Assembly: GCA_964386715.1 (NCBI GenBank)
Contig: CAYLTD010000006.1
Span: 3,518 to 67,517 of the forward strand
Origin: an uncultured Bifidobacterium sp.
GTDB lineage: Bacteria; Acidobacteriota; Vicinamibacteria; Vicinamibacterales; CAVVIG01
Direction: 5' to 3'
Length of the DNA: 64,000 bases
Made by a program: the position numbers and the translations under genes. The notes below the pieces were generated by a model, which searched no databases, had not been told where the DNA came from, and saw only the letters and a list, made by a program, of their open reading frames with translations. Of this stretch, positions 34,580 to 45,638 are shown piece by piece. Numbering within the stretch: the stretch's first letter is position 1; every line of letters begins with the position of its first letter.

Positions 34580-34924
34580 TCACCGCCGATCGTTGCGCCG
34601 GTCCTCCCGCCGATCGCGCCGGTCTTCGCGGCGGTCCCGTGTATCTTCCGCCCGGTCGCGCCGGTCTTCATGCCGGTCGCGCACGTCCTCGCGCCGGTCT
34701 CGAGCGCCGCCGTCGTGGCGGGCGTCCCATCGATCTTCGCGGCGGTCACGTACGTCCTCGCGGCGGTCGCGTCGGTCCTCGCGTGCGTCGCGTGCGTCTT
34801 CGCGGCGATCGCGCCTGTCCTCGATCCGGTCGCGCCTGTCGCGATTGGTGGACGCCGGCGCCTGCGCCAGTACCGGTGCGCTCACCATCGCCAGCAGTGC
34901 AATCGTGCTGAATGTCCTGAACAT
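34580..34924 (-). CDS. exported low-complexity protein composed of RDRRED-type charged heptads
   Basis: GGAGGAG SD and Sec signal MFRTFSTIALLAMVSAPVLAQA. The remaining ~87 aa are almost exclusively R, D and E. Confidence 0.55.
   Translation of the reverse strand: MFRTFSTIALLAMVSAPVLAQAPASTNRDRRDRIEDRRDRREDARDAREDRRDRREDVRDRREDRWDARHDGGARDRREDVRDRHEDRRDRAEDTRDRREDRRDRREDRRNDRR
34583..34843 (-). repeat. imperfect ~21-bp tandem repeat encoding (R-D-R-R-E-D-x)n
   Basis: About 11-12 degenerate heptad units can be read in the translated ORF. The same periodicity creates spurious Arg/Ser ORFs on the opposite strand. Confidence 0.7.
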
Positions 34925-35194
34925 GCGGCTCCTCCGTCGCTGAGTTCCCCGCATCGGCCCGACCGCCGGACCGCTGCGCTGCGAGGCGGATGAGCAAGCG
35001 CTGCGCCGGAGAGCGGCGCAGGTCTGTGACAGGTCTGTGACATCGACGGGCTGGCCCACACGAGTGTCGGGGAGCAGCTGGCCCCGGCGCAGGTGAGGGT
35101 CGCCTCGGCGGGCCTCGTGAACACGGCGCCACGGCGCCGGCTTGCCGCGGTTCTCGTGCTGATCCCGGTGGTAGGATCCGTGTGGCATTGTTCA

Positions 35195-38100
35195 ATGACC
35201 TGCCCGCGCTGCGGCACCGAGTACTCTGATTCGTCGACGAGCTGTCCCGCCTGCTCGGCAGCGGCGCCGGACGACGGCGCCACGCTCGTCCACACGCCTG
35301 CGCCGGGCGAGCGTGCCGAGTTCGTCATCGACGCGGAGCAGACACTCGCACCGCCGTCGCCTCTTGATGCGGGCCAGACGCTGCCGCCCCCGCCCTTCGA
35401 TCCGGACGTCACGCTGCTCGGGGAGCCAGCCGATGCGGACATGACGCTGGCTGCGCCGCCACGCCAGGCGACGACGCGCAGTGGGAACCGGGCGGGTGCC
35501 GGCAGCCGCGCGACTGGCGCCACCGGGCCCCTGGCCGTCGGGCAGACCTTCGGCACCCGGTACCACATCATCAAGGTCCTCGGCGTGGGTGGCATGGGGG
35601 CCGTCTATCAGGCGTGGGATGCGGAACTGGGCGAGGCCGTCGCAATCAAGGTCATCCGGCCTGAGGCGATGGAGAACCCGGGCGCTGCCCTCGAACTCGA
35701 GAAACGGTTCAAGCGAGAGCTCCTGCTGGCACGCCAGGTCACCCACAAGAACGTCGTACGCATCCACGATCTCGGCGAGATCGACGGCATCAAGTACATC
35801 ACGATGTCGTACGTCGAGGGCACCGAGCTCGCCTCGATGCTGCGCGAGGAGGGGAAACTCAGCGTCGAGCGGACGCTCGTGATCATCCGGTCCATCGTGG
35901 AGGGGTTGCTGGCCGCGCACGCTGCCGGCATCGTGCACCGCGACCTGAAGCCGGCGAACATCATGATCCGGGAGGACGGCGAGGCGCTCATCATGGACTT
36001 CGGCATTGCCCGGTCCACGAGCGGGCCGTCCGAGAAGGCGGTCGCCGCCTCGGTGGCGTCACTGCCCGCGCGCCTCCGGAACGCCGCCACGAACTACACC
36101 GAGGCCACGATCGCGGGCTCCATCGTCGGCACCGTCCAGTACATGGCCCCCGAGCAGGCACGTGGCGAGGAGGTCGATCAGCGGACCGACATCTACGCTC
36201 TCGGGCTCATCGTCTACGACATGCTCGCCGGGCGGCACCGATCGGAGCACGCCGAGAGTGCGATTCAGGAACTGCGCACCCGGATGGAGCGCTCGCCGGT
36301 GCCCATCCAGACGATTGTGCCCTCCGTCCCGGGGCCGCTGAACGAGTTCGTCTCGCGCTGCATCGAGGTGGATCGTGACAAGCGCTTCGCGTCGACCCAG
36401 GACATGGCCGCGGCGCTGGCGCGGCTGGACGAGCACGGCAACCTCCGCCGCATCCGCCGGGTCGTCGGGCTGCCCCTGCTGGCCGCCGTCGTCCTGCTCC
36501 TGCTGCTGGGATCCGGAGGCATCGTCTACTACCAGCGCCAGCTGATTCCCGAAGCGCCGCACGATCCCGTGTCGGTGGTCCTCGCCGACATCGAGAACCG
36601 GACCGGGGATCCGACGTTCGACAACACGCTCGAGCCCCAGATCAAGCGCGCGCTCGAAGGCGCGGGCTTCATCACCGCGTACGACCGCACCGGCATCAGT
36701 CGCACCCTCGGCGTAAAGCCGCCAGAGAAGCTCGACGAGAACGTGGCGCGTGAAGTGGCCGTGAAGCAGGGTCTCGGTGTCGTGGTGTCCGGCGCCATCG
36801 CACCGGCCGGGAACGGCTACGAGGTGTCCATCAAGGCCACGCGCACCGTCAGCGGCGACGTCATCACTGCGGCTCGCGCGAGAGCGGGCAGCCGGGACCG
36901 CGTGCTCGAGACCGCCAACCGCCTGGTGACGAACGTCCGCCAGGCTCTCGGTGACAAGGCGTCCGAGTCCGAGCAGATGTTCGCGATGGCCAGCCTGTCG
37001 GCCACTTCGCTCGAGGTGGTCCGCTACTACGGCCAGGCGATGGAAGCCCAGTCGAAGAACGACTTCGAGCAGGCTCGCGAGAACTTCCTGAAGACGGTCG
37101 AACTCGACCCCAGGTTCGGCATCGGCTACCAGGGGCTGTCCGTGATCTCGCGGAACCTCGGCCGGCTCGATGATGCCGACAAGTACATCAAGCAGGCGCT
37201 GCAGTACCTCGACGGCATGACCGAGCGTGAGCGGTTCGTGACCCGCGGGATGTACTACCGCGTCAGCGGCGATTACGAGCAGTGCGTGAAGGAGTACGGC
37301 GAGCTGGTGTCGCGCTATGCCGGTGATGCGGTTGGCCACAATCAGCGGGCACTCTGCCTGTCGAAACTTCGTGACCTGAAGGGTGCCACCGAGGACATGC
37401 GGCAGGTGGTGCAGCTGCTGCCACGGCGTGCCGTGTTCCGCGACAACCTGGCCCTCTATGCGAACTACGCCAGCGACTTCCAGACCGCCGAGAAGGAGGC
37501 GCTGGCGGTCGAGGAACCCGACGCGTATGCGGTGCTGGCGCTGGCATTCGCGCAGTTCGGGCAGGGGCGCGTGCAGGAGGCGACCGCCACCTACACGCGG
37601 CTCGCCGGGATGGGCCGCCTTGGAGCGACCATGTCGGCGTCCGGGCTCGCCGACATCGCGCTGTACGAGGGCCGCCTGTCGGACGCGATCCAGGGCTTCG
37701 AGGCGGGCGCCGCCGCGGATCTGGCAGCGAAGAACGGGGACAAGGCTGCGATGAAGCTGACGTCGGTGGCCTATGCGAACCTGCTGATGGGTCGGCCGCG
37801 CCCGGCGGCCGCTGCCGCTGAACGGGCGCTGGCCCACAGCAAGGCGGTGGCGATCCAGTTCCTCGCGGGCAGGACGTTTGTCGCGGCCGGCGTCACGGAG
37901 CGGGCGAGGGAGCTCTCTGCGGGGCTCTCGCAGGGGCTCCAGTCCGAGCCTCAGGCCTACGCCAGGATCATCGAAGGCGAACTCGCCCTCAAGGCCGGTA
38001 ACGCTCGCGAGGCCGTGAAGGCCTTCACGGAAGCCAACAACCTCCTCGACACCTGGCTGGGCCACTACGACCTCGGCCTCGCCTACCTGGCGCTGGAGGC

Positions 38101-38344
38101 CTACCCGCAGGCGGACTCCGAGTTCGATCGGTGCATCAAGCGGAAGGGCGAAGCGCTGTCGCTCTTCGTCGACGAGGAGCCGACGCTCGGCTATTTCCCG
38201 GGCGTGTACTACTACCAGGGCCGCGTGCGGGAAGGCCTGAACAGTGCGGGATTCGCCGACCTCTATCGCGAGTACCTGAACATCCGCGGCACGTCGACCG
38301 AAGATCCGCTCCTGCCCGACATCCGCCGCCGACTCGCGAACTGA
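35195..38344 (+). CDS. Ser/Thr protein kinase with N-terminal zinc ribbon, one TM segment and extracytoplasmic TPR region
   Basis: CPRCG...CPAC ribbon; kinase motifs GGMGAVY, AIKV, HRDLKPANIM, DFGIA and APE; TM LPLLAAVVLLLLLGSGGIVYY; C-terminal TPR-like repeats. Confidence 0.88.
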   Translation: MTCPRCGTEYSDSSTSCPACSAAAPDDGATLVHTPAPGERAEFVIDAEQTLAPPSPLDAGQTLPPPPFDPDVTLLGEPADADMTLAAPPRQATTRSGNRAGAGSRATGATGPLAVGQTFGTRYHIIKVLGVGGMGAVYQAWDAELGEAVAIKVIRPEAMENPGAALELEKRFKRELLLARQVTHKNVVRIHDLGEIDGIKYITMSYVEGTELASMLREEGKLSVERTLVIIRSIVEGLLAAHAAGIVHRDLKPANIMIREDGEALIMDFGIARSTSGPSEKAVAASVASLPARLRNAATNYTEATIAGSIVGTVQYMAPEQARGEEVDQRTDIYALGLIVYDMLAGRHRSEHAESAIQELRTRMERSPVPIQTIVPSVPGPLNEFVSRCIEVDRDKRFASTQDMAAALARLDEHGNLRRIRRVVGLPLLAAVVLLLLLGSGGIVYYQRQLIPEAPHDPVSVVLADIENRTGDPTFDNTLEPQIKRALEGAGFITAYDRTGISRTLGVKPPEKLDENVAREVAVKQGLGVVVSGAIAPAGNGYEVSIKATRTVSGDVITAARARAGSRDRVLETANRLVTNVRQALGDKASESEQMFAMASLSATSLEVVRYYGQAMEAQSKNDFEQARENFLKTVELDPRFGIGYQGLSVISRNLGRLDDADKYIKQALQYLDGMTERERFVTRGMYYRVSGDYEQCVKEYGELVSRYAGDAVGHNQRALCLSKLRDLKGATEDMRQVVQLLPRRAVFRDNLALYANYASDFQTAEKEALAVEEPDAYAVLALAFAQFGQGRVQEATATYTRLAGMGRLGATMSASGLADIALYEGRLSDAIQGFEAGAAADLAAKNGDKAAMKLTSVAYANLLMGRPRPAAAAAERALAHSKAVAIQFLAGRTFVAAGVTERARELSAGLSQGLQSEPQAYARIIEGELALKAGNAREAVKAFTEANNLLDTWLGHYDLGLAYLALEAYPQADSEFDRCIKRKGEALSLFVDEEPTLGYFPGVYYYQGRVREGLNSAGFADLYREYLNIRGTSTEDPLLPDIRRRLAN

Positions 38345-39021: not shown

Positions 39022-42000
39022 TCACGGGCCAGCGGTCACCGTCAGGCTGACTGTGGCCTGGGTGCTGTCGAGGGGCGTCACGCCACTCGCTTCCCGGGCG
39101 ACGTAGGTGAAGCTGTCCACGCCGACGAACCCGGCAGCTGGCCGGTAGATGAACCCGCCTTCCGGGGTCAGCGTGAGCGTGCCGTTCGCCGTGGGCGAAG
39201 CGAGCACCGCGATAAGCGGATCGTTCTCGACGTCGGTGTCGTTGGCCAGGACGCCGCCATACGACGACGCGGCGTACACGGCCTGCAGCTCCGTGATGGT
39301 CAAGGCGCGGTTGAAGAGCAGCACCTGGTCGACGCTGCCAACCAGCGACGCGCCAGGCACGAGAAGCGTGGTCGCCCGCGCACCGATGAGCACGGGTTCT
39401 CCGGGCGTCAGAACCGGCGTGCCGGTGGTGGTGATGACAGCGCACCCGTCCTGCACGCCGTCGAGGTACACGCACAGCGTCCTGGTGCTGTCGTCATACA
39501 CGCCTGCCACGTTGTGCCACGTGCCGCCGCTCACGGTGGACGCACCGCCGACGACGCACGTGCCGCCCTCGTCGCACGCCACGTAGGCGCTGCTGTCCCA
39601 GTACGCCGGCGTGAGCGAACCGCTCGCTGCGGCATCGGTGAATGCCACGCCCAGCTGGACCCTGCCGCCCTGCACCTGGAGCCGGTAGTTCGTCAGCGTG
39701 CCGTCCTTGCTGACGACGGTGTTCTCCGCGTACCGGTCGGTCAGGTTGACCCAGGCGCCGATCGAGAAGCTGCCCGGCTGGGCGAGCGAGGGGCCATCCG
39801 GGATGGACACAGCGCTCGACCCGTCGAGCACGAAGGCCTGGCCGTACTTGCCCGCGCCGTAGCTCACGCTTCCGAGGGCGGACCCGTCGTTCGTGCCCTT
39901 GCTGTCCTGTGCATTCCCGTCACCGCGCCACCAGCCCGTGAGCCCGGCGGGCGGTCCGGCCACGACGACATCGGAGGCGCCGACGTAGGACCAGTTGAGG
40001 ATGTCGGCATTCTCGACTGCGCCACCGGTGCCGGCCGTGAAGCCGACGAAGGCGTCCGAGCCACCCAGGGTGCTCGGGATGTCGATCGCGTAGGCGAGGG
40101 TCGCGTCCGCCGGACGCTCCGATGTCCGACTCAGGCGCACGGCAAGCGTTGCGCCGTCGTACTCCACCCAGGCGTACCAGAGCGCTCCGTCCTTGAGCGA
40201 TCCGAGCGGAGAGACGTCGGCGGTCTGCACCGAGACCATCGAGCCGTTGACGTCCACGCCGATGTGGTTGTCGTTCGGATCGTAGAAGTTGGGGAACGTG
40301 TCGAACTCCACGGCCACGCTCGGCGAGATCTTCGCACCCTGGCAGGGGGTCTCGACGCCGCACAGGCTCGGGTCCGGGAACTCGCCGAGCCCGAGGTTCT
40401 CGCCGCGCGCGCCGAGCTGTGTTGGCCCGACCGGCTGCAGCACGAAGGCGAACCCGTCGCCTCCGCCTTCCGAGGGCGCGAGCCTGAAGGTGAAGGCGGT
40501 GGAGAACCGTGTGACGTTGCGGGTCAGCGACGTGAACGCGCTGCCCCGCTGGCCGAAGTCTGCCGGAACGACCCGCAGCACCGTTCCGTCCGTCGTCGTC
40601 ACGGCCGCAGCCGGTCCGTTGAGCGTCAGTCCGTCGGTGGATGCGAAATCGGCGAAGGACACGGGCGGGCCGACCCTCGTGGCGTAGCTGTCGTCCGTGG
40701 GGACCGGGGGATCGTTCACCGGCGTGACGTCGATCGTGACCGTCGCCGGGGTGCTGGTGATCGCCGCCGCGCAGAGCGTCGCCACCGCGCCGCAGTTGTC
40801 CGGATCGCCCCTGTCCGTGATGGTGAACACGAAGCTGTCGGGGCCGAAGTAGTTGGCGTCGGGCGTGTAGGCCAGGTTCGGCAGCGTGCCCGTGAGCGTG
40901 CCGTGCTGCGGAGGCGTGGTGATCTGGAACGTCAAGGTCGCACCGGACGTTTCCAGGTCGGAGCCCGACAACGTCAGTGGCACCGGCGTGGCGCATGAAG
41001 CCGCCGGCGAGCTGCTGCAGTCCTCGAACAGCGTCAGGACCTGCGGCGTGGCGGTGGGCGGGTCGTTGACCGGCAGCACCGTCACCGTGACGGTCGCCGC
41101 CCCGCTGGGGAGCGCGCCCGCACAGCCCTGCGGTGGGGGCGCCCCTGCCGCGCAGGAGTCCGGGTCGCCGCGATCGGTCACCGTGAAGGTGAACGTATCC
41201 ACGCCGTTCCAGTTTGCGGCCGGCGTGTAGGTGGCGGTCCGCCCGGACAGGAGCAGCGTTCCGCCCGCCGGTGACGTGCCCACGGCATAGGCGAGGTCGT
41301 CGGGACTGATGGTCTCGACGTCAGCGCCCGACAGCGTCATCACCACCGCGCCGCTGTCCTCCGTGATGGTGATCGGGTCCGGCGCGATGGCCGTCGGCTG
41401 GTCGTTCACCGCGCGCACCGTGATCGTGAACGTGACGGGCGGCGTGCTCGTGTCGATCCCGCCGAAGGCCGTGCCGCCGTTGTCCCGAATCTGCACCGTC
41501 ACGGTCGCGACGCCGTTGGCATTCGGTGCCGGCGTGTAGGTGAGCACGCCGGACGGCGAGATCGCCGGTTGCCCGGCGCCCGCCGTGAACAGCCCGCTGT
41601 TGTTGTTCGAGACGAGGAAGGCCAGCACCTGTCCGCACACCGACGGCACCGCACCAGGTTCGGCACATGAGGTGCCGTCCGTCTCGTTGAGCGGTCCGGC
41701 GCTGAGGACCGAGGCCCACCCCACTGAGCGAGTTCCCGAGTCTTCATCCACCGAATCGTTTCCGCCTGCAACGAACGACGGCACGTCATTGACGGGGTTC
41801 ACGGTGATGGTCACCTTCGCCACGTTCGAATCCGGGCTGAGCGGGGTGACCCCGTTCCACAGGGGCGCCTTGATCTTGTAGGTGAACGACACCGTGCCGT
41901 AGTAGTTGCCGGCTGGCGCGAAGGTGAACGACCCGTTGTCGTTCAGCACCAGGATGCCGGCCGACGGATTGGAGAGACCGGTGACCAGCAACACGCCGGC

Positions 42001-45000
42001 CGCCGGCTTCGGGCTGTCGGGGTCGGTGTCGTTCAGGAGCACGCCCGTCGCGGCTGAGACGCTCAGCAACGGCGTGTCCTCGTTCACGCTGTAGAAGTCG
42101 TCATTCGCGGACGCCTGCGCGTTGAACGGCGGGATCGCGGATGCCGCGTCGTTCACCGCGGTGACGGTCACGAAGTTCGAGGGGCTGCTGACGTCGGCCG
42201 CGCTGGTGAACTCCGCGATGGCCCAGTAGGTGAACTCGACCCCGTTCGGCAGTTCCTCCTGATCGACGAGGCTGAACGTCGAGCCGTTCGGCGTGCGCCC
42301 GACCAGCACCTTGGCTGCCGTCGTGGTCGCGTTGATGGCCGTCCCCGTGATCCGGTACACCGCGTAACTGGTGACCTGGTCCCCGCCGACGTTCGGCACC
42401 TCCCAGCGCAGCAGGTTCCGGTGGAGCGGCGCAATCGGAGGCGTGGTCGAGGCCTGCACGCACCCGGGTGTGCCGATCACGCACACGGTCAACCGGTTCG
42501 GCGGCGTGTGGCTCAGGGCCGACGACGTCTCGTAGTCGATCTCCTGGCCGCCGCCGAAGTCGATGCCGCCGCCGAAATCGATGCCGCCGCCGAAATCGAT
42601 GCCGCCACCGAAGTCGATGCCGCCGCCGAAGTCGATGCCACCACCGAAATCGATGCCGCCGCCGAAGTCGATGCCGCCGCCGTAGTCGATGCCGCCGCCG
42701 TAGTCGATGCCGCCACCGTAGTCGATGCCGCCGCCGTAGTCGATGCCGCCGCCGAAGTCGATGCCGCCGCTGAAATCAATGCCGCCGCCGAAATCGATCC
42801 CGCCGCCGAAATCGATGCCGCCGCCGTAGTCGATGCCGCCGCCGAAATCGATGCCCGCCGAGAAGCCGGCCATGTTCGGCGTGGCGCCCATCTGGTTGAG
42901 GCGCACGTTCGCCCATTCGTTGAAGCCGGTCAGCGGCGACAGGCTGCCGTCGAAGTTGACGTCCTGGGACATCAGGCCACCGGGATCGAGGCCGGTCGTG
43001 TTCCAGTCGATGACGCCCGACATCGGACCATCGAAACGGGCCGTCGGCACCCACCCCGCCGGAAGCGGATTGGGGAACGTCGCGCCGTTGCAGTACTTCT
43101 TGGCCGGCGTCAGCCCGAGGTTGGCGGCCAGCGAGCCGGGCACGAGCGGCACGAACCAGGCCGCGCGGTAGATCGCCCCTTCACCCGGCATGCCGGCATC
43201 CCGCAGAGCGCCCTCGGTCAGCGTCGGCCGCTGGCCGCGGCCGTAGTCCAGCACCTGCTGGTTCGTGTAGTCGAGCAATCCGTGCGTCTGATACAGGTAG
43301 CTCATTACGCTCGGGATGTTCGGCTTGCAGTTCGGCTCGTACTTCACCGTCACGCGGCCGTTCGGGTTCGCGGTGTATGTCGCCGGAGCCCCGCCGTGCC
43401 ACAACTCCAGGTTGTGACCCAGTTCGTGCATCGTCGTCGACGCCTGCGCGAACGATGTGCCCACGAAGTTGTCCCAGAGGCCGAGCGTCACCATCAGGTT
43501 GCCGCCGGGCAGCGTGCTCACGCCCGAACTGCTCTTCGGCACGTGGTAGTCGGGTGAGTTCGGATCGGTGGACTTCGGGATGCCGCGGGCGTGCGCGTAG
43601 AGCAGGTAGTGGAACAGGCCCTGCCGTTCGTGATCGAACCTCCGGCGGCAGGGATTGCTGGCGCGGCCCGGAGCCTCGCAGGCGTCCTGGTCGGCTGCGT
43701 TCAGTTCCTGGCCCGCTGGTCCGACCGGCGCGTCGCGCAGGATCTGGTAGCCGATCTGGAAGCTGACCGTACCTGGGAAATCGGGGAACTGGCAGGGTGC
43801 GCCGCCCGCCGTCGTGCATGCGGTCTCCCGCATGGTCTCTCCCCCACGGGCATACGCGGGATCCACGAGATAGTCCCTGGCTGGCGTGTCAGCGCCGTAG
43901 CCTGGCAGCCCGCGGTAGTCGCCGACATCGAAGTGGATGTTGATGCCCGGTGTGTTGTCCGGGTTGCTCACGGGGGCGTTCCTGTACGCCTCGCCCAGCA
44001 TCCGGAACACCTCGGGCTTGGGCAGGTGACTATGGCCGGCCGCATCGACGACGCGTGCCGTCGTGGCGTTCACCGGGGCAGCCGCGGAGCCGTACGCGGT
44101 TCCGGGGTCGGCGGTCATGGCGCCGACCTCCACGAAGATGTCCTTGTGCCTCGAACTGGCGCCCATCGCCTTGAGGTTCGGGAGCGGCTCCCAGTTCGGC
44201 TGTCGCAGCGTCCCCGTCGCATCTTCGATGCGGTCGGGGATGCCGTCGTTGTCGACGTCCTTCACGGTGGTGGAGAACGCGATGGCCGCCCACGCGAGAC
44301 AGTCGTACTGGCTCGAGTTCGTATGGTCGATCGTGGTGACCACTTCTTCGCCGAAGCCGCCCCCGCCCGGCGCCGCATCGCGTCCTGGCAGCTGCGCGGT
44401 CACGTCGAAGGTCGGGTTCGACCAGCCACGGTCCGAGTTGCCCCCCTGGCCCGTGTTGACGAACTTGTCGCCGCCGAGCAGCGTCGGCGCGTTCGAGCGG
44501 AGATTGTTGAACCAGACGCGGTCGGTCTTGTTCTGGCGTCCGCTCGCGACGATGTGCGTGAGCTTGGCGACGTGGGTGCTCGACGACTGGAAGAACCCGC
44601 GCAGTTCCTGGGAGGTGACGGCGTTCGGTGGCTCGAGGTAGGCGCCGTCATACAGCACGATCTGGGTGAGCGGCTGCGACGGGTCGCGATAGACGACGAA
44701 CAGCGACGCGCCGGCGCTCACTGGGACGGCATTAGTGGAGGGCGGCGCGTCCGGCAGCTTGACGCTGTGCAGCGGTAGGCCTGCCCTGGCGAGGTCCGTG
44801 TCATTGACGAGGCGCTTGCCAGTGGGCTTGCCGTTCGTGTCCAGTTGCAGCGGCAGCAGGCGCAGCACGTCGGCGCGGTACATCGTCAGCGTCGGCTGCG
44901 GTCCCGCGCTGAAGCAGGACGCGGTGGCCGGGGTCGGCCTCACGCGCGATGCCTTGACCGTGGTGACCGGTTGCCCGCGGAACGTCACGCCGTCGGCCTG

Positions 45001-45285
45001 CTCTCTGATGATCGACGAGCCCGTGATGGTTTCCCAGTAGAGGAACGCCGCGATGATGTCCGCATTGGCCGGTACGCCCGTCATCGGGATGTTGCCCGTG
45101 ACGAAGGCCGAACTCCCGGCTGCCTTCGGCAGGTCCACGCCCCCGACGGCGTAGTTGCCCGTCAGCAGATAGCTCTTCGAGAACGGCAGCGCGTCCCTGA
45201 GCGGCGCCTGCGCCTGGCCGCCCGTCCAGGCGAACGCGAACGCGAGGGCCACGGCGAGCAGGGCGGCACGAGCCGTGACACGCAT
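39022..45285 (-). CDS. giant secreted multidomain surface protein (metzincin-like module, GGGID[F/Y] array, cadherin/Ig-like repeats, legume-type lectin, LamG)
   Basis: Signal MRVTARAALLAVALAFAFAWTGGQAQA. HELGHNLELWH at 43396-43428. Repeats ending in VNDxP/NDTD. Lectin signature VAVEFDTFPN..DPNDNHIGVDVN at ~39985-40665. LamG-like region at ~39300-39945. An alternative upstream ATG at 45375 has a GAGG SD. Confidence 0.8.
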   Translation of the reverse strand: MRVTARAALLAVALAFAFAWTGGQAQAPLRDALPFSKSYLLTGNYAVGGVDLPKAAGSSAFVTGNIPMTGVPANADIIAAFLYWETITGSSIIREQADGVTFRGQPVTTVKASRVRPTPATASCFSAGPQPTLTMYRADVLRLLPLQLDTNGKPTGKRLVNDTDLARAGLPLHSVKLPDAPPSTNAVPVSAGASLFVVYRDPSQPLTQIVLYDGAYLEPPNAVTSQELRGFFQSSSTHVAKLTHIVASGRQNKTDRVWFNNLRSNAPTLLGGDKFVNTGQGGNSDRGWSNPTFDVTAQLPGRDAAPGGGGFGEEVVTTIDHTNSSQYDCLAWAAIAFSTTVKDVDNDGIPDRIEDATGTLRQPNWEPLPNLKAMGASSRHKDIFVEVGAMTADPGTAYGSAAAPVNATTARVVDAAGHSHLPKPEVFRMLGEAYRNAPVSNPDNTPGINIHFDVGDYRGLPGYGADTPARDYLVDPAYARGGETMRETACTTAGGAPCQFPDFPGTVSFQIGYQILRDAPVGPAGQELNAADQDACEAPGRASNPCRRRFDHERQGLFHYLLYAHARGIPKSTDPNSPDYHVPKSSSGVSTLPGGNLMVTLGLWDNFVGTSFAQASTTMHELGHNLELWHGGAPATYTANPNGRVTVKYEPNCKPNIPSVMSYLYQTHGLLDYTNQQVLDYGRGQRPTLTEGALRDAGMPGEGAIYRAAWFVPLVPGSLAANLGLTPAKKYCNGATFPNPLPAGWVPTARFDGPMSGVIDWNTTGLDPGGLMSQDVNFDGSLSPLTGFNEWANVRLNQMGATPNMAGFSAGIDFGGGIDYGGGIDFGGGIDFGGGIDFSGGIDFGGGIDYGGGIDYGGGIDYGGGIDYGGGIDFGGGIDFGGGIDFGGGIDFGGGIDFGGGIDFGGGIDFGGGQEIDYETSSALSHTPPNRLTVCVIGTPGCVQASTTPPIAPLHRNLLRWEVPNVGGDQVTSYAVYRITGTAINATTTAAKVLVGRTPNGSTFSLVDQEELPNGVEFTYWAIAEFTSAADVSSPSNFVTVTAVNDAASAIPPFNAQASANDDFYSVNEDTPLLSVSAATGVLLNDTDPDSPKPAAGVLLVTGLSNPSAGILVLNDNGSFTFAPAGNYYGTVSFTYKIKAPLWNGVTPLSPDSNVAKVTITVNPVNDVPSFVAGGNDSVDEDSGTRSVGWASVLSAGPLNETDGTSCAEPGAVPSVCGQVLAFLVSNNNSGLFTAGAGQPAISPSGVLTYTPAPNANGVATVTVQIRDNGGTAFGGIDTSTPPVTFTITVRAVNDQPTAIAPDPITITEDSGAVVMTLSGADVETISPDDLAYAVGTSPAGGTLLLSGRTATYTPAANWNGVDTFTFTVTDRGDPDSCAAGAPPPQGCAGALPSGAATVTVTVLPVNDPPTATPQVLTLFEDCSSSPAASCATPVPLTLSGSDLETSGATLTFQITTPPQHGTLTGTLPNLAYTPDANYFGPDSFVFTITDRGDPDNCGAVATLCAAAITSTPATVTIDVTPVNDPPVPTDDSYATRVGPPVSFADFASTDGLTLNGPAAAVTTTDGTVLRVVPADFGQRGSAFTSLTRNVTRFSTAFTFRLAPSEGGGDGFAFVLQPVGPTQLGARGENLGLGEFPDPSLCGVETPCQGAKISPSVAVEFDTFPNFYDPNDNHIGVDVNGSMVSVQTADVSPLGSLKDGALWYAWVEYDGATLAVRLSRTSERPADATLAYAIDIPSTLGGSDAFVGFTAGTGGAVENADILNWSYVGASDVVVAGPPAGLTGWWRGDGNAQDSKGTNDGSALGSVSYGAGKYGQAFVLDGSSAVSIPDGPSLAQPGSFSIGAWVNLTDRYAENTVVSKDGTLTNYRLQVQGGRVQLGVAFTDAAASGSLTPAYWDSSAYVACDEGGTCVVGGASTVSGGTWHNVAGVYDDSTRTLCVYLDGVQDGCAVITTTGTPVLTPGEPVLIGARATTLLVPGASLVGSVDQVLLFNRALTITELQAVYAASSYGGVLANDTDVENDPLIAVLASPTANGTLTLTPEGGFIYRPAAGFVGVDSFTYVAREASGVTPLDSTQATVSLTVTAGP
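42532..42858 (-). repeat. 18-bp tandem repeat, 17 near-identical units plus 1 degenerate unit, encoding G-G-G-I-D-[F/Y]
   Basis: Units such as gccgccgccgaaatcgat, gccgccgccgaagtcgat and gccgccgccgtagtcgat are read directly, in frame within the giant ORF. Confidence 0.9.
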
Positions 45286-45638
45286 CGTCGACACCGGGCT
45301 GACTGGGCATGCGCTCGGGTCGCCTGGCCCGGTGAGGGCAGCATGGGTGTGCGCGACGTGATCGATCCTTCGCATCGAGGCCTCGAATGTGTGCGCGCAG
45401 CGCCCGAGCGAGATGGTGTGATGCCTGGGGGCTCAGGCAGCCCGCGCCCCGATGATACGGCCGAACGCGGCGGCGTCAGCGGCCTTGTCGAGATCTTTAG
45501 CTGTCCGGTTACGCGGATGTTACGAAAGGGCCGCTGCCAGGTCGCACGGCCCACGGACTTGTTGACTGCTGGTCACGCGCCTGCCGAAACCCCGCTGCAC
45601 CTCTGCTCCAGCCCGGCCGCGACTGCCAGCGCCTGGAG

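What the first reader, a model, noticed from the sequence alone, without database searches (positions are those of the whole stretch)
42532..42858. Seventeen near-identical GGGID[F/Y] hexapeptide units encoded by an 18-bp tandem repeat inside the giant surface protein
Read directly from the sequence: 17 consecutive in-frame 18-bp units plus one degenerate unit (QEIDY) encode G-G-G-I-D-F/Y. They differ only at synonymous positions or by F/Y and G/S changes.

- The period (6 aa) and the residue positions do not fit the RTX nonapeptide GGxGxDxUx or any other repeat family I can name.
- The Gly3-hydrophobic-Asp-aromatic pattern suggests a regular solenoid: a beta-roll-like, possibly Ca2+-binding, structure or a polyglycine-II-type bundle.
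- It sits as a spacer between the protease-like head and the Ig/cadherin stalk.
- The near-perfect DNA identity of the units implies recent expansion and makes the tract a likely copy-number-variable locus through slipped-strand events or recombination.
Basis: seen in the sequence. Interest (0 to 1): 0.65.

Follow-up and report, generated by a model that had tools for sequence, protein, structure and literature searches.

The report
Selected hexapeptide repeat module in adhesin
A giant secreted protein of an uncultured, probably acidobacterial, biofilm bacterium carries 17 near-identical six-residue units (GGGIDF/Y), and these are one version of a roughly 100-residue repeat module found at the same spot in over 100 relatives, where selection holds the peptide sequence and copy number fixed even though the repeat unit differs between lineages.

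Summary
An 18-bp array (window 42556-42861, minus strand) encodes 17 x [G/S][G/A]G-I-D-[F/Y] inside a 2117-aa secreted protein.

- **Same position in relatives.** In 109 homologues (40-50% identical heads), a homogeneous short repeat fills the same slot between a conserved N-cap (RNMAGFS-G) and C-cap (ELDY/F).
- **Period varies, length does not.** Periods are 5 (40 proteins), 8 (40), 7 (19) and 6 (2, including the window). Tract length stays near 104 aa.
- **Not a recent or unstable array.** In relatives, units are 100% identical as protein but scrambled at synonymous sites. Copy number was invariant in 35 of 36 complete tracts from four clusters of ≥90% identity. The window's DNA identity is mostly codon bias (0.78 observed, 0.65 expected).
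- **Fold is open.** AlphaFold2 gives no structure for the tract (pLDDT 24-36) and Pfam gives no hit. Yet the GGG + I-D-F pattern resembles hexapeptide beta-helix repeats.

Best reading (0.4): a selected, fixed-length, acidic, glycine-rich, non-globular connector or spring between a metzincin-like head and the stalk. Main rival (0.3): a capped beta-solenoid.

The parts
39022..45375 (-). Whole gene: 2117-aa secreted multidomain protein. The true start is probably Met31 at 45285.
   Evidence: ORF list and translation; Pfam and NCBIfam domains; a signal-peptide-like sequence starts at aa 31.
45205..45285 (-). Signal-peptide-like N-terminus MRVTARAALLAVALAFAFAWTGGQAQA (aa 31-57).
   Evidence: Read from the translation. 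The signal-peptide assignment is an inference from the hydrophobic core plus the AQA motif.
44389..44712 (-). DUF3344-like beta-sandwich part of the head (aa 222-329).
   Evidence: Pfam PF11824, E=1.6e-4 on the whole protein and 9e-6 on the segment, just below the cut-off. AlphaFold2 models it as beta-rich with pLDDT above 85.
44221..44259 (-). DxDxDGxxDxxE motif (DVDNDGIPDRIED, aa 373-385), TSP3-like and presumably Ca2+-binding.
   Evidence: The four motif acidic residues (aa 373, 377, 381, 384) are invariant columns of alignment A1, listed there as D317, D321, D325, E328. Weak TSP3_bac hit. Position.
43396..43428 (-). Zincin motif HELGHNLELWH (HExxHxxxxxH, aa 650-660).
   Evidence: H, E, H and H are at least 90% conserved in 86 sequences. 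The profile gives weak hits to adamalysin-type active-site helices in the PDB, E 0.005-0.06. Reprolysin_5 E=0.043, below cut-off.
42862..42963 (-). Conserved N-anchor and N-cap (DVNFDG...NEWANVRLNQMG-ATPNMAGF, aa 805-838).
   Evidence: Aligns in 109 homologues. N-cap consensus is R-N-M/A-A/V-G/K-F-S/Q-x-G, with F in 74 of 109.
42556..42861 (-). The repeat: 17 x 18 bp encoding [G/S][G/A]G-I-D-[F/Y] (aa 839-940).
   Evidence: AlphaFold2 pLDDT is 24-36 with no secondary structure. No Pfam family at E<=10.
42508..42555 (-). Conserved C-cap GGGQEIDYETSSALSH (aa 941-956).
   Evidence: An E-[LI]-D-[YF]-type motif occurs in the last 24 aa of the tract in 96 of 109 homologues. AlphaFold2 models a helix at model residues 892-897 (aa 948-953); the two 10-residue blocks containing it average pLDDT 86-90.
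42196..42507 (-). FN3/Ig-like beta-sandwich that starts the stalk (aa 957-1060).
   Evidence: AlphaFold2 gives beta strands with pLDDT mostly 80-95. The profile matches the Ig/FN3 region of titin, E=1.6e-6.
40651..42111 (-). Stalk of about 5-6 tandem-95 / Big_9 / cadherin-like domains (aa 1089-1575).
   Evidence: Pfam Big_9 2.4e-49, Cadherin_4 2.9e-42, Cadherin_5 7.6e-34. NCBIfam tand_rpt_95 3.6e-48.
39985..40635 (-). Legume-lectin-like domain (aa 1581-1797).
   Evidence: Pfam Lectin_legB, 3.3e-33.
39286..39825 (-). Laminin_G_3 / concanavalin-like domain (aa 1851-2030).
   Evidence: Pfam PF13385, 1.5e-18.
39034..39258 (-). C-terminal VCBS/cadherin-like domain (aa 2040-2114).
   Evidence: NCBIfam VCBS_repeat, 17.5 bits against a cut-off of 15.5.

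Best explanation
The GGGIDF/Y array is the local version of a conserved module in a large family of secreted multidomain proteins, mostly from Acidobacteriota. The module is a tract of about 100 residues made of one short unit repeated many times. It sits between a conserved N-cap and a conserved C-cap, directly after a metzincin-like head and directly before the FN3/cadherin-like stalk.

**Shown**
- The module's position, its caps and its typical length are conserved.
- The unit differs between clades (period 5, 6, 7 or 8).
- Within a clade, every residue and the copy number are held by purifying selection while synonymous sites drift.

**Inferred**
- The tract is non-globular: a glycine-rich polyanionic chain (47% Gly, one Asp and no basic residue per unit) with one aliphatic and one aromatic 'sticker' per unit.
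- It works as a fixed-length flexible or elastic tether, an entropic spring. The tether sets the reach and mechanical compliance of the head relative to the stalk.
- Its Asp residues may make it responsive to Ca2+ or pH.
- The units probably arose by slippage amplification of the seed motif G-(L/I)-D-(F/Y), which is still present in both caps. Selection then kept them.
For: **A family-wide module**
- 109 of 121 sequences (the window protein plus 120 listed homologues) have both anchors with a repeat tract between them.
- Relatives at 28-50% identity in Acidobacteriota, Solibacteraceae and Bryobacterales genomes also have one: GGGLDY, GSLATDA, DIGKS. One at 37% identity has GGLF[GA]D.

**Length is conserved, period is not**
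- Median tract length is 104 aa (IQR 93-112), for periods of 5 (n=40), 8 (n=40), 7 (n=19) and 6 (n=2).

**Common denominator is composition, not a fold pattern**
- Mean composition is Gly 25%, acidic 20%, basic 2%.
- Several classes (AEGTADA, GFEDQAD, GGEDF) have one or no large hydrophobic residue per unit, so they cannot build a hydrophobic solenoid core.

**Structure prediction**
- AlphaFold2 with an 86-sequence alignment models head and stalk well (pTM 0.88) but gives the tract pLDDT 24-36 and no secondary structure.
- No Pfam family matches at E<=10.
- The related GGLDF tract just reaches the Pfam model of lamprin, an elastomeric GGLGY-repeat protein (35.8 bits against a cut-off of 34).

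**The tract is not needed for the flanks to exist**
- P0012 has a single unit (34 aa) between the anchors, so the flanks do not require the tract.

**Selection**
- L008 encodes GLDFG x16 with 15 distinct DNA units and no amino-acid change.
- Its codon identity between units is 0.43, against 0.45 expected.
- Between orthologues P0014 and P0013, the tract is 80/80 aa identical with 39/80 codons identical. The flank is 95/120 aa identical.
- 24 GLDFG proteins have heads 43-91% identical and 12-16 copies of GLDFG, which stays their predominant unit.
Against: - A generic flexible linker does not explain why every residue of every unit, and the copy number, are conserved more strictly than the catalytic head.
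- The window's unit is one-third bulky hydrophobic residues (I, F/Y). That is atypical for soluble disordered regions.
- The unit has the small-small-small-hydrophobic-Asp-hydrophobic pattern of hexapeptide beta-helix repeats.
- Some orthologous tracts (GSTFE x14) pass Pfam Pentapeptide cut-offs.
- Irregular interruptions inside the arrays are conserved in position within clades, which suggests a defined architecture.
- The AlphaFold2 negative is weak. The alignment mixes different periods in this region, and the single-sequence run also failed on the neighbouring FN3 domain.
Confidence: 0.4

Rival explanations
1. The tract folds into a capped, regular beta-solenoid: a triangular hexapeptide beta-helix with three units per turn and about 5.7 turns. 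GGG forms the corners and I-D-F forms a short strand. Ile and Phe/Tyr fill the core, and Asp forms an external ladder that could bind Ca2+ or a periodic ligand. Other clades would build pentapeptide-type or other solenoids of similar rod length.
For: - An exhaustive phmmer search with the tract finds 488 proteins at E<=1e-3.
- The top hits are period-6/12 repeats such as VGGNVD-ISNNLD, x-G-x-L-D-V and GIDAGW.
- 4 of 9 tested pass the Pfam Bactofilin cut-off and 2 more hit below it. Bactofilin is a triangular beta-helix; that structural statement is from my own knowledge.
- One hit carries a phage tail-fibre chaperone domain.
- The only PDB sequence hit aligns the tract with the left-handed beta-helix hexapeptides of maltose O-acetyltransferase, E=0.078.
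- The orthologous GSTFE x14 tract passes three Pentapeptide Pfam cut-offs.
- Conserved caps at both ends are typical of solenoids; the solenoid generalisation is from my own knowledge.
- Residues, copy number and interruptions are strictly conserved.
- Total length is constant at about 100 aa, roughly 5 turns of 18-20 residues.
Against: - AlphaFold2 gives pLDDT 24-36 for the tract.
- The window tract has no Pfam Hexapep, Bactofilin, Pentapeptide or HemolysinCabind hit, even at E<=10.
- 47% glycine with triple-Gly corners is far above known beta-helices; that comparison is from my own knowledge.
- Natural solenoids usually have degenerate units, not identical ones (my own knowledge).
- Orthologous tracts with almost no hydrophobic residues (AEGTADA, GFEDQAD, GGEDF) cannot share this fold.
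- Switching among periods 5, 6, 7 and 8 would need a different solenoid geometry in each clade.
- E-values for low-complexity repeats are inflated.
Confidence: 0.3
2. The tract is an array of identical short linear motifs. Each unit of 5-8 residues is recognised by a co-evolving partner. The partner could be the protein's own metalloprotease, which would cleave the tract to release the head or to release many copies of one short peptide. It could also be its lectin/LamG domains on neighbouring molecules, or a modifying enzyme.
For: - Perfect identity of all units under purifying selection, with clade-specific 'dialects', is the pattern of multicopy peptide precursors and motif arrays. That comparison is from my own knowledge.
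- The unit size equals a protease-cleft footprint (my own knowledge).
- The tract directly follows a conserved zincin motif.
- It is predicted to be unstructured and therefore accessible.
Against: - No evidence of cleavage, of released peptides or of a modifying enzyme was found. The gene neighbourhood shows no such partner.
- The conserved total length, conserved interruptions and fixed copy number are not predicted by this model.
- Heads diverge to 43% identity while the unit stays the same.
Confidence: 0.12
3. The array is a recently expanded, hypermutable contingency locus whose copy number changes by slipped-strand mispairing.
For: - The window's units share more codons than codon bias predicts (0.783 against 0.652 +/- 0.047, P=0.007).
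- Four of the five Tyr units have identical DNA.
- The longest exact internal repeat is 35 nt.
- One relative in a 90% cluster lacks five units (P0296).
Against: - Most of the DNA identity is codon bias in a 68% G+C gene.
- Arrays in relatives are saturated at synonymous sites.
- Copy number is identical in 35 of 36 complete tracts from four clusters of >=90% identity. All members of a fifth cluster that carry the whole gene have the same length.
- Copy number is fixed within clades whose heads are only 60-87% identical.
Confidence: 0.04
4. The array, or its length, is an assembly artefact.
For: Short-read contigs of all four runs that hold the locus break inside the array, so 17 copies is not independently verified.
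Against: - Unitigs from four independent runs tile the whole array with no mismatch, including its unit-variant order.
- The reading frame is maintained and the flanks are conserved.
- The window's 123 aa between the anchors lies within the family range of 33-184.
Confidence: 0.03

Closest known systems
Hexapeptide beta-helix repeats: bactofilin domain PF04519, left-handed beta-helix 'Hexapep' PF00132, and phage tail-fibre hexapeptide regions
   Same: - Period 6.
- Pattern is small-small-small, hydrophobic, Asp/Asn, hydrophobic.
- The best phmmer hits of the tract are such proteins.
- The only PDB sequence hit is a left-handed beta-helix acetyltransferase.
   Different: - The window tract reaches no Pfam threshold.
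- It has 47% Gly and nearly identical units.
- It is extracellular and sits between a protease-like head and an adhesin stalk.
- AlphaFold2 predicts no fold.
Pentapeptide repeat family (PF00805 / PF13576 / PF13599), right-handed quadrilateral beta-helix
   Same: Orthologous tracts at the same position (GSTFE x14 in P0050 and P0055) pass the Pfam cut-offs. GGLDF gives weak hits.
   Different: The window's period is 6, not 5, and it has no Pentapeptide hit.
RTX nonapeptide beta-roll (GGxGxDxUx, HemolysinCabind)
   Same: Gly/Asp/hydrophobic composition, a secreted protein, and possible Ca2+ dependence (inference).
   Different: - Period is 6, not 9.
- There is no G at position 4 and no D at position 6 of a GGxGxD turn (read from the sequence).
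- No Pfam hit.
- The tract is internal, not near the C-terminus.
Elastomeric Gly-rich repeat proteins (lamprin GGLGY, abductin, elastin, flagelliform silk)
   Same: - Short (5-8 aa) Gly-rich units with one or two hydrophobic or aromatic residues.
- High homogeneity and predicted lack of fixed structure.
- The related GGLDF tract just passes the Lamprin model.
   Different: - Bacterial and strongly acidic.
- Only about 100 aa long, with conserved caps.
- No experimental evidence of elasticity.
- The Lamprin hit is a low-complexity match, not homology.
Ser-Asp repeat (R/SD) region of staphylococcal Clf/Sdr adhesins
   Same: An acidic low-complexity repeat encoded by 18-bp DNA units with synonymous variation. 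It acts as a spacer that projects a ligand-binding domain (my own knowledge).
   Different: - The SD unit is a dipeptide and is glycosylated.
- SD-region length varies between strains.
- Here the units are 5-8 aa, contain aromatic residues, and copy number is fixed.
FG-repeat domains of nucleoporins (GLFG, FxFG)
   Same: Many units contain an F-G dipeptide separated by Gly-rich spacers (GIDFGG, GLDFGG, GLFGDG). Predicted disorder, and the unit sequence differs between lineages.
   Different: - One acidic residue per unit.
- Perfect periodicity.
- Extracellular and bacterial.
- No evidence of cohesive or gel behaviour.

Membership tests
RTX / HemolysinCabind beta-roll | Nonapeptide GGxGxDxUx repeats detectable by PF00353 | tested here: not met
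   No PF00353 hit on the whole protein at E<=1 or on the tract at E<=10. The period is 6, and the residues at the turn positions do not fit.
Left-handed beta-helix hexapeptide repeat (PF00132) | [LIV]-[GAED]-x-x-[STAV]-x hexapeptides recognised by the Pfam model | tested here: not met
   No Hexapep hit at E<=10. There is only a non-significant PDB sequence match to maltose O-acetyltransferase, E=0.078. In the register F-G-G-G-I-D the consensus is only partly satisfied: F stands for [LIV] and I stands for [STAV].
Left-handed beta-helix / bactofilin-type beta-helix | Triangular beta-helical fold with about 18 residues per turn | tested here: inconclusive
   AlphaFold2 gives pLDDT 24-36 and no strands in the tract. 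The single-sequence run was uninformative because the FN3 control part also failed.
Bactofilin domain (PF04519) | Match to the Pfam model above 27.9 bits | tested here: not met
   The window tract has no hit. Of nine tract phmmer hits scanned, four pass the Bactofilin cut-off (36.9-50.7 bits) and two score below it.
Pentapeptide repeat (PF00805 clan) | Period-5 A(D/N)LxX units above the Pfam cut-off | tested here: not met
   The window tract has period 6 and no hit. The orthologous P0050 tract passes, with 67.3 / 50.5 / 44.3 bits against cut-offs of 27 / 20.2 / 38.
Metzincin (reprolysin/adamalysin-like) metallopeptidase, for the head | HExxHxxGxxH zinc motif | tested here: inconclusive
   HELGHNLELWH has the three His and the Glu, all at least 90% conserved. 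It has Glu in place of the motif Gly. Reprolysin_5 scores 14.5 bits against a cut-off of 27. PDB adamalysin hits have E 0.005-0.06.
Metzincin (reprolysin/adamalysin-like) metallopeptidase, for the head | Met-turn and zincin fold | not tested
   Foldseek on the whole 1004-residue model returned only weak beta-sandwich matches. The catalytic subdomain was not searched separately.
Fibrillar adhesin (head + repetitive stalk) | Secreted protein with a stalk of tandem Ig/cadherin-like domains and putative binding domains | tested here: met
   - Signal-peptide-like N-terminus.
- Big_9 / Cadherin_4/5 / tandem-95 stalk, lectin and LamG domains.
- DUF3344 is listed among head-domain clusters of predicted fibrillar adhesins (PMC9210967).
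- Adhesion itself is not testable here.
Contingency (phase- or size-variable) repeat locus | Copy-number polymorphism among close relatives, and DNA-level homogeneity of units | tested here: not met
   Relatives show 35 of 36 complete tracts with identical copy number in four 90% clusters, and saturated synonymous sites. The window's own population could not be tested because the contigs break in the array.

The most novel reading that the evidence does not exclude
The tract is a multicopy array of one exact peptide, and the adjacent cis-encoded metalloprotease cuts it to release about 17 identical hexapeptides. Other clades would release pentapeptides to octapeptides. The clade-specific units would then be signal or effector 'dialects'. 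This would explain the perfect amino-acid identity with scrambled codons, the disorder prediction and the position next to the protease. It would be a new kind of self-processing peptide-precursor adhesin.
Probability: 0.07. Interest if true: 0.85.

Novelty: new variant of a known kind. Interest (0 to 1): 0.6.

Why it matters
- **An unusual evolutionary pattern.** The same slot in more than 100 diverged proteins holds a repeat of about 100 residues. Its unit and period differ between clades. Within a clade the peptide and the copy number are more conserved than the catalytic head, while the DNA is codon-scrambled.
- **It separates two properties.** 'Repetitive' usually goes with 'unstable', and here it does not. 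Selection acts on repeat homogeneity itself.
- **It is a natural experiment.** The module could show what a short-period repeat connector must provide (length, charge, stickers, or a solenoid), and how a period-5 array can be replaced by period-6, -7 or -8 arrays.
- **A practical use.** It defines an unannotated family of large secreted Acidobacteriota proteins (head + capped repeat + stalk) for annotation and structural work.
- **A design lesson.** It offers natural examples of codon-scrambled perfect repeats, a trick used in synthetic repeat-protein genes.

Tried and rejected
- **Literature.** Searches for the peptide units (GGLDF, GDFLDFGS, GGGIDF, GGEDF, GGQDF), for the family context and for DUF3344 found nothing about this module. 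One adhesin survey lists DUF3344.
- **Word-indexed search with the tract alone.** It gave a single weak hit, so the exact unit is nearly unique. The exhaustive phmmer search was more informative.
- **The window's own genome.** An exact-DNA scan of the genome collection found nothing.
- **Close relatives.** The metagenome scan gave one 37% relative. No relative above 70% identity covering the tract was found, so copy number in the window's own species could not be compared.
- **Copy-number check with reads.** Only short-read contigs exist, and they break in the array.
- **Single-sequence AlphaFold2.** It was uninformative because the control FN3 part also failed.
- **Foldseek on the whole head model.** It gave only weak jelly-roll matches and no zincin hit.
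- **Even-copy-number / hairpin idea for GGLDF arrays.** Dropped, because the counts come from two or three clades only and many arrays are uninterrupted.
- **Unit-by-unit positional orthology between P0014 and P0013.** Not significant (12.4 against 12.0 identical nucleotides of 15, P=0.09).
- **Operon context.** The neighbours give no functional link: a Ser/Thr kinase with TPR repeats, SCO1/SenC, a Lon N-domain protein and a VWA protein.
Full report
**1. The observation**

Tandem Repeats Finder reports a single array in the right half of the window. It lies at 42547-42860, with period 18, 17.4 copies, 91% matches and no indels.

The array is coding on the minus strand, inside ORF 39022-45375 of 2117 aa. 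Laid out in frame, aa 839-940 (window 42556-42861) are 17 hexapeptides: SAGIDF followed by sixteen [G/S]GGID[F/Y]. GGG-QEIDY follows.

- 13 codons differ synonymously from the consensus.
- 8 codons differ non-synonymously: five F->Y, two G->S and one G->A.
- The tract is 47% Gly with 17 Ile, 17 Asp and 17 Phe/Tyr. It has no basic residue.

Only the G/A change in the first unit was missed.

Contigs from four independent biofilm-metagenome runs tile the array without a mismatch. All of them break inside it, so the exact number of 17 is not independently confirmed.

**2. The protein**

A signal-peptide-like sequence starts at Met31. Going from N- to C-terminus:

| Region (aa) | Feature | Evidence |
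|---|---|---|
| head | beta-rich, with a sub-threshold DUF3344 match | |
| 373-385 | DxDxDGxxDxxE motif whose four acidic residues are invariant | |
| 650-660 | zincin motif HELGHNLELWH, with His/Glu at least 90% conserved | |
| 839-940 | the repeat | |
| 957-1060 | FN3-like domain | |
| 1089-1575 | five or six Big_9 / cadherin-like / tandem-95 domains | |
| 1581-1797 | legume-lectin domain | |
| 1851-2030 | Laminin_G_3 domain | |
| 2040-2114 | terminal VCBS-like domain | |

The zincin motif shows only weak similarity to adamalysin/reprolysin active sites. The placement 'between a protease-like head and an Ig/cadherin stalk' is therefore right. The protease assignment rests on a motif alone.

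**3. What relatives show**

A search with aa 1-1060 returned 503 proteins. The best 120 have heads 38-54% identical; one N-terminal fragment reaches 67%. Nearly all come from metagenomes. The named sources in genome collections are mostly Acidobacteriota.

I anchored each homologue on the conserved sequence before the tract (…NEWANVRLNQ-G) and after it (the start of the FN3-like domain). 109 of 121 sequences, the window protein included, have both anchors with a repeat tract between them.

The unit is not conserved:

| Period | Proteins | Example units |
|---|---|---|
| 5 | 40 | GGLDF, GGQDF, GGEDF, GGYVD, GSTFE, GGLQW |
| 8 | 40 | GDFLDFGS, GDLLDFGS, GLDLEFFQ |
| 7 | 19 | GGELDLA, DLDFVGG, GFEDQAD, AEGTADA |
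| 6 | 2 | the window included |

- More distant genomic relatives also have a repeat at this position: GGGLDY x9 at 50% identity, GSLATDA x8 at 31% and DIGKS-type at 28%.
- A relative at 37% identity has GGLF[GA]D x~30.
- Tract length is conserved whatever the period: median 104 aa, IQR 93-112, range 33-184.
- The N-cap is conserved: R-N-M/A-A/V-G/K-F-S/Q-x-G.
- The C-cap is conserved: typically E-L-D-Y/F followed by a short helix; a looser form of the motif occurs in 96 of 109.
AlphaFold2 models its second half as a helix in a confidently predicted stretch.
- Both caps contain G-(L/I)-D-(F/Y). This looks like the seed from which the units were amplified (inference).
- P0012 has just one unit between the caps, so the flanks do not need the tract.

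**4. Recent and unstable, or old and selected?**

In relatives the answer is clear.

- In L008 (P0014), sixteen GLDFG units are encoded by 15 different DNA sequences with no amino-acid change.
- Codon identity between its units is 0.43, against 0.45 expected from the gene's own codon usage. That is saturation.
- GSTFE x14, GGGLDY x7 and GSLATDA x8 likewise show only synonymous variation.
- Between orthologues P0014 and P0013, the tract is 80/80 aa identical with only 39/80 codons identical. The 120 residues before it are 95/120 aa identical, with 56/95 shared codons. Synonymous divergence is similar in tract and flank, while non-synonymous divergence in the tract is zero.
- 24 GLDFG proteins have heads only 43-91% identical (median 57%), yet each carries 12-16 copies of GLDFG as its predominant unit.
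- Copy number is fixed within sub-clades: 16, 14, or 8+1+8.
- In four clusters of ≥90% identity, 35 of 36 complete tracts have the same copy number. The exception lacks five units. All members of a fifth cluster that carry the whole gene have the same length.

In the window itself, codon identity between units is 0.783, against 0.652 +/- 0.047 expected from codon bias (P=0.007). Most of the 'near-perfect DNA identity' is therefore codon bias in a 68% G+C gene. There is a modest excess: four of the five Tyr units are identical in DNA, which suggests some local duplication.

The inference of a recent, copy-number-variable locus is not supported. I could not test it directly on the window's own population.

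**5. Structure**

AlphaFold2 was run on aa 57-1060 with an 86-sequence alignment. It models the head and the FN3 domain well (mean pLDDT 82, pTM 0.88). The tract gets pLDDT 24-36 and no secondary structure. A single-sequence run on aa 800-1000 was uninformative, because the FN3 part failed too.

The window tract matches no Pfam family at E<=10. The GSTFE tract of an orthologue passes three Pentapeptide-repeat cut-offs, and GGLDF marginally passes Lamprin.

The exhaustive phmmer search gave a different signal. It returned 488 proteins at E<=1e-3.
- The best hits are period-6/12 repeat proteins of the type VGGNVD-ISNNLD and x-G-x-L-D-V.
- Four of nine tested pass the Pfam Bactofilin cut-off, and two more hit below it.
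- One carries a tail-fibre chaperone domain.
- The only PDB sequence hit is the hexapeptide region of a left-handed beta-helix acetyltransferase, at a non-significant E=0.078.

The pattern 'three small residues + hydrophobic-Asp-hydrophobic' is therefore the generic pattern of triangular hexapeptide beta-helices. Every formal membership test failed, however, and E-values for such low-complexity queries are inflated.

**6. Weighing the models**

These points favour a non-globular, fixed-length acidic tether or spring:
- The AlphaFold2 result.
- 47% Gly with triple-Gly runs.
- Conservation of length but not of period.
- Orthologous tracts with essentially no hydrophobic residues (AEGTADA, GFEDQAD, GGEDF). 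These cannot share a hydrophobic-core fold, yet they occupy the same capped slot.
- The tract is dispensable in P0012.

These points favour a solenoid:
- The hexapeptide pattern and the phmmer hits.
- Pentapeptide-family membership of some orthologous tracts.
- Conserved caps.
- Strict conservation of every residue, of copy number, and of the position of internal interruptions.

Neither model explains everything. In particular, per-residue selection combined with clade-specific units is also what an array of recognised or cleaved linear motifs would show. There is no direct evidence for that third model.

My estimates are: tether/spring 0.40, solenoid 0.30, motif or cleavage array 0.12, contingency locus 0.04 and assembly artefact 0.03. 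The remainder is unknown. Ca2+ or pH responsiveness of the Asp residues fits the first two models but is only an inference.

**7. Novelty**

No Pfam or NCBIfam model covers the tract. No paper in the searchable library mentions these units or this module.

Short Gly-rich repeat connectors and beta-helix repeats are known kinds. The new element is this combination:
- a capped, length-conserved, period-variable module;
- perfect peptide units maintained by selection over saturated synonymous sites;
- a large, unannotated, mostly acidobacterial protein family.

I rate it a new variant of a known kind, with interest 0.6.

Noticed in passing
window 34580-35188 (-), tandem array 34595-34834: 21/42-bp tandem repeats encode a small protein. 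It has an internal signal-peptide-like start (MFRTFSTIALLAMVSAPVLAQA) followed by about 13 highly charged heptads of the type DRREDxR.
   Followed up: partly
window 35093-38344 (+); contig of P0020: A Ser/Thr protein kinase with TPR repeats lies convergent to the 3' end of the giant gene in the window. A Pkinase+TPR gene sits in the same convergent position next to homologue P0020. This may be conserved synteny. It was not seen next to P0014.
   Followed up: partly
L012 3001-7092 and 7799-10092: Two paralogues of the family lie in tandem in one genome (1.7-Mb contig). Both have Pentapeptide-type Pfam hits on record, which in P0050 fall in the GSTFE repeat tract.
   Followed up: partly
window 45286-45375 (-): The longest ORF starts 30 codons upstream of a typical signal peptide. 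The real start is probably Met31 at 45285.
   Followed up: no
P0296 (member of the 90% cluster of P0077): This is the only copy-number variant seen among 36 complete tracts of close relatives. It lacks five GLQWG units (25 aa). It comes from a 3.9-kb contig, so an assembly collapse cannot be excluded.
   Followed up: no
L002 (contig CAZDLW010000008.1): A 35%-identical head is found in a MAG labelled Bifidobacteriaceae. That is an odd host for an otherwise mostly acidobacterial family. The ORF there is only 558 aa and lacks the HExxH motif. It may be a binning error or a broken gene.
   Followed up: no
window 42556-42861 (-): Inside the tract the rarer codon GAT is used for 7 of 17 Asp, against 20% in the rest of the gene. 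L008 shows a similar enrichment of minor Gly and Asp codons. This may reflect selection for DNA-level diversity of the units.
   Followed up: partly
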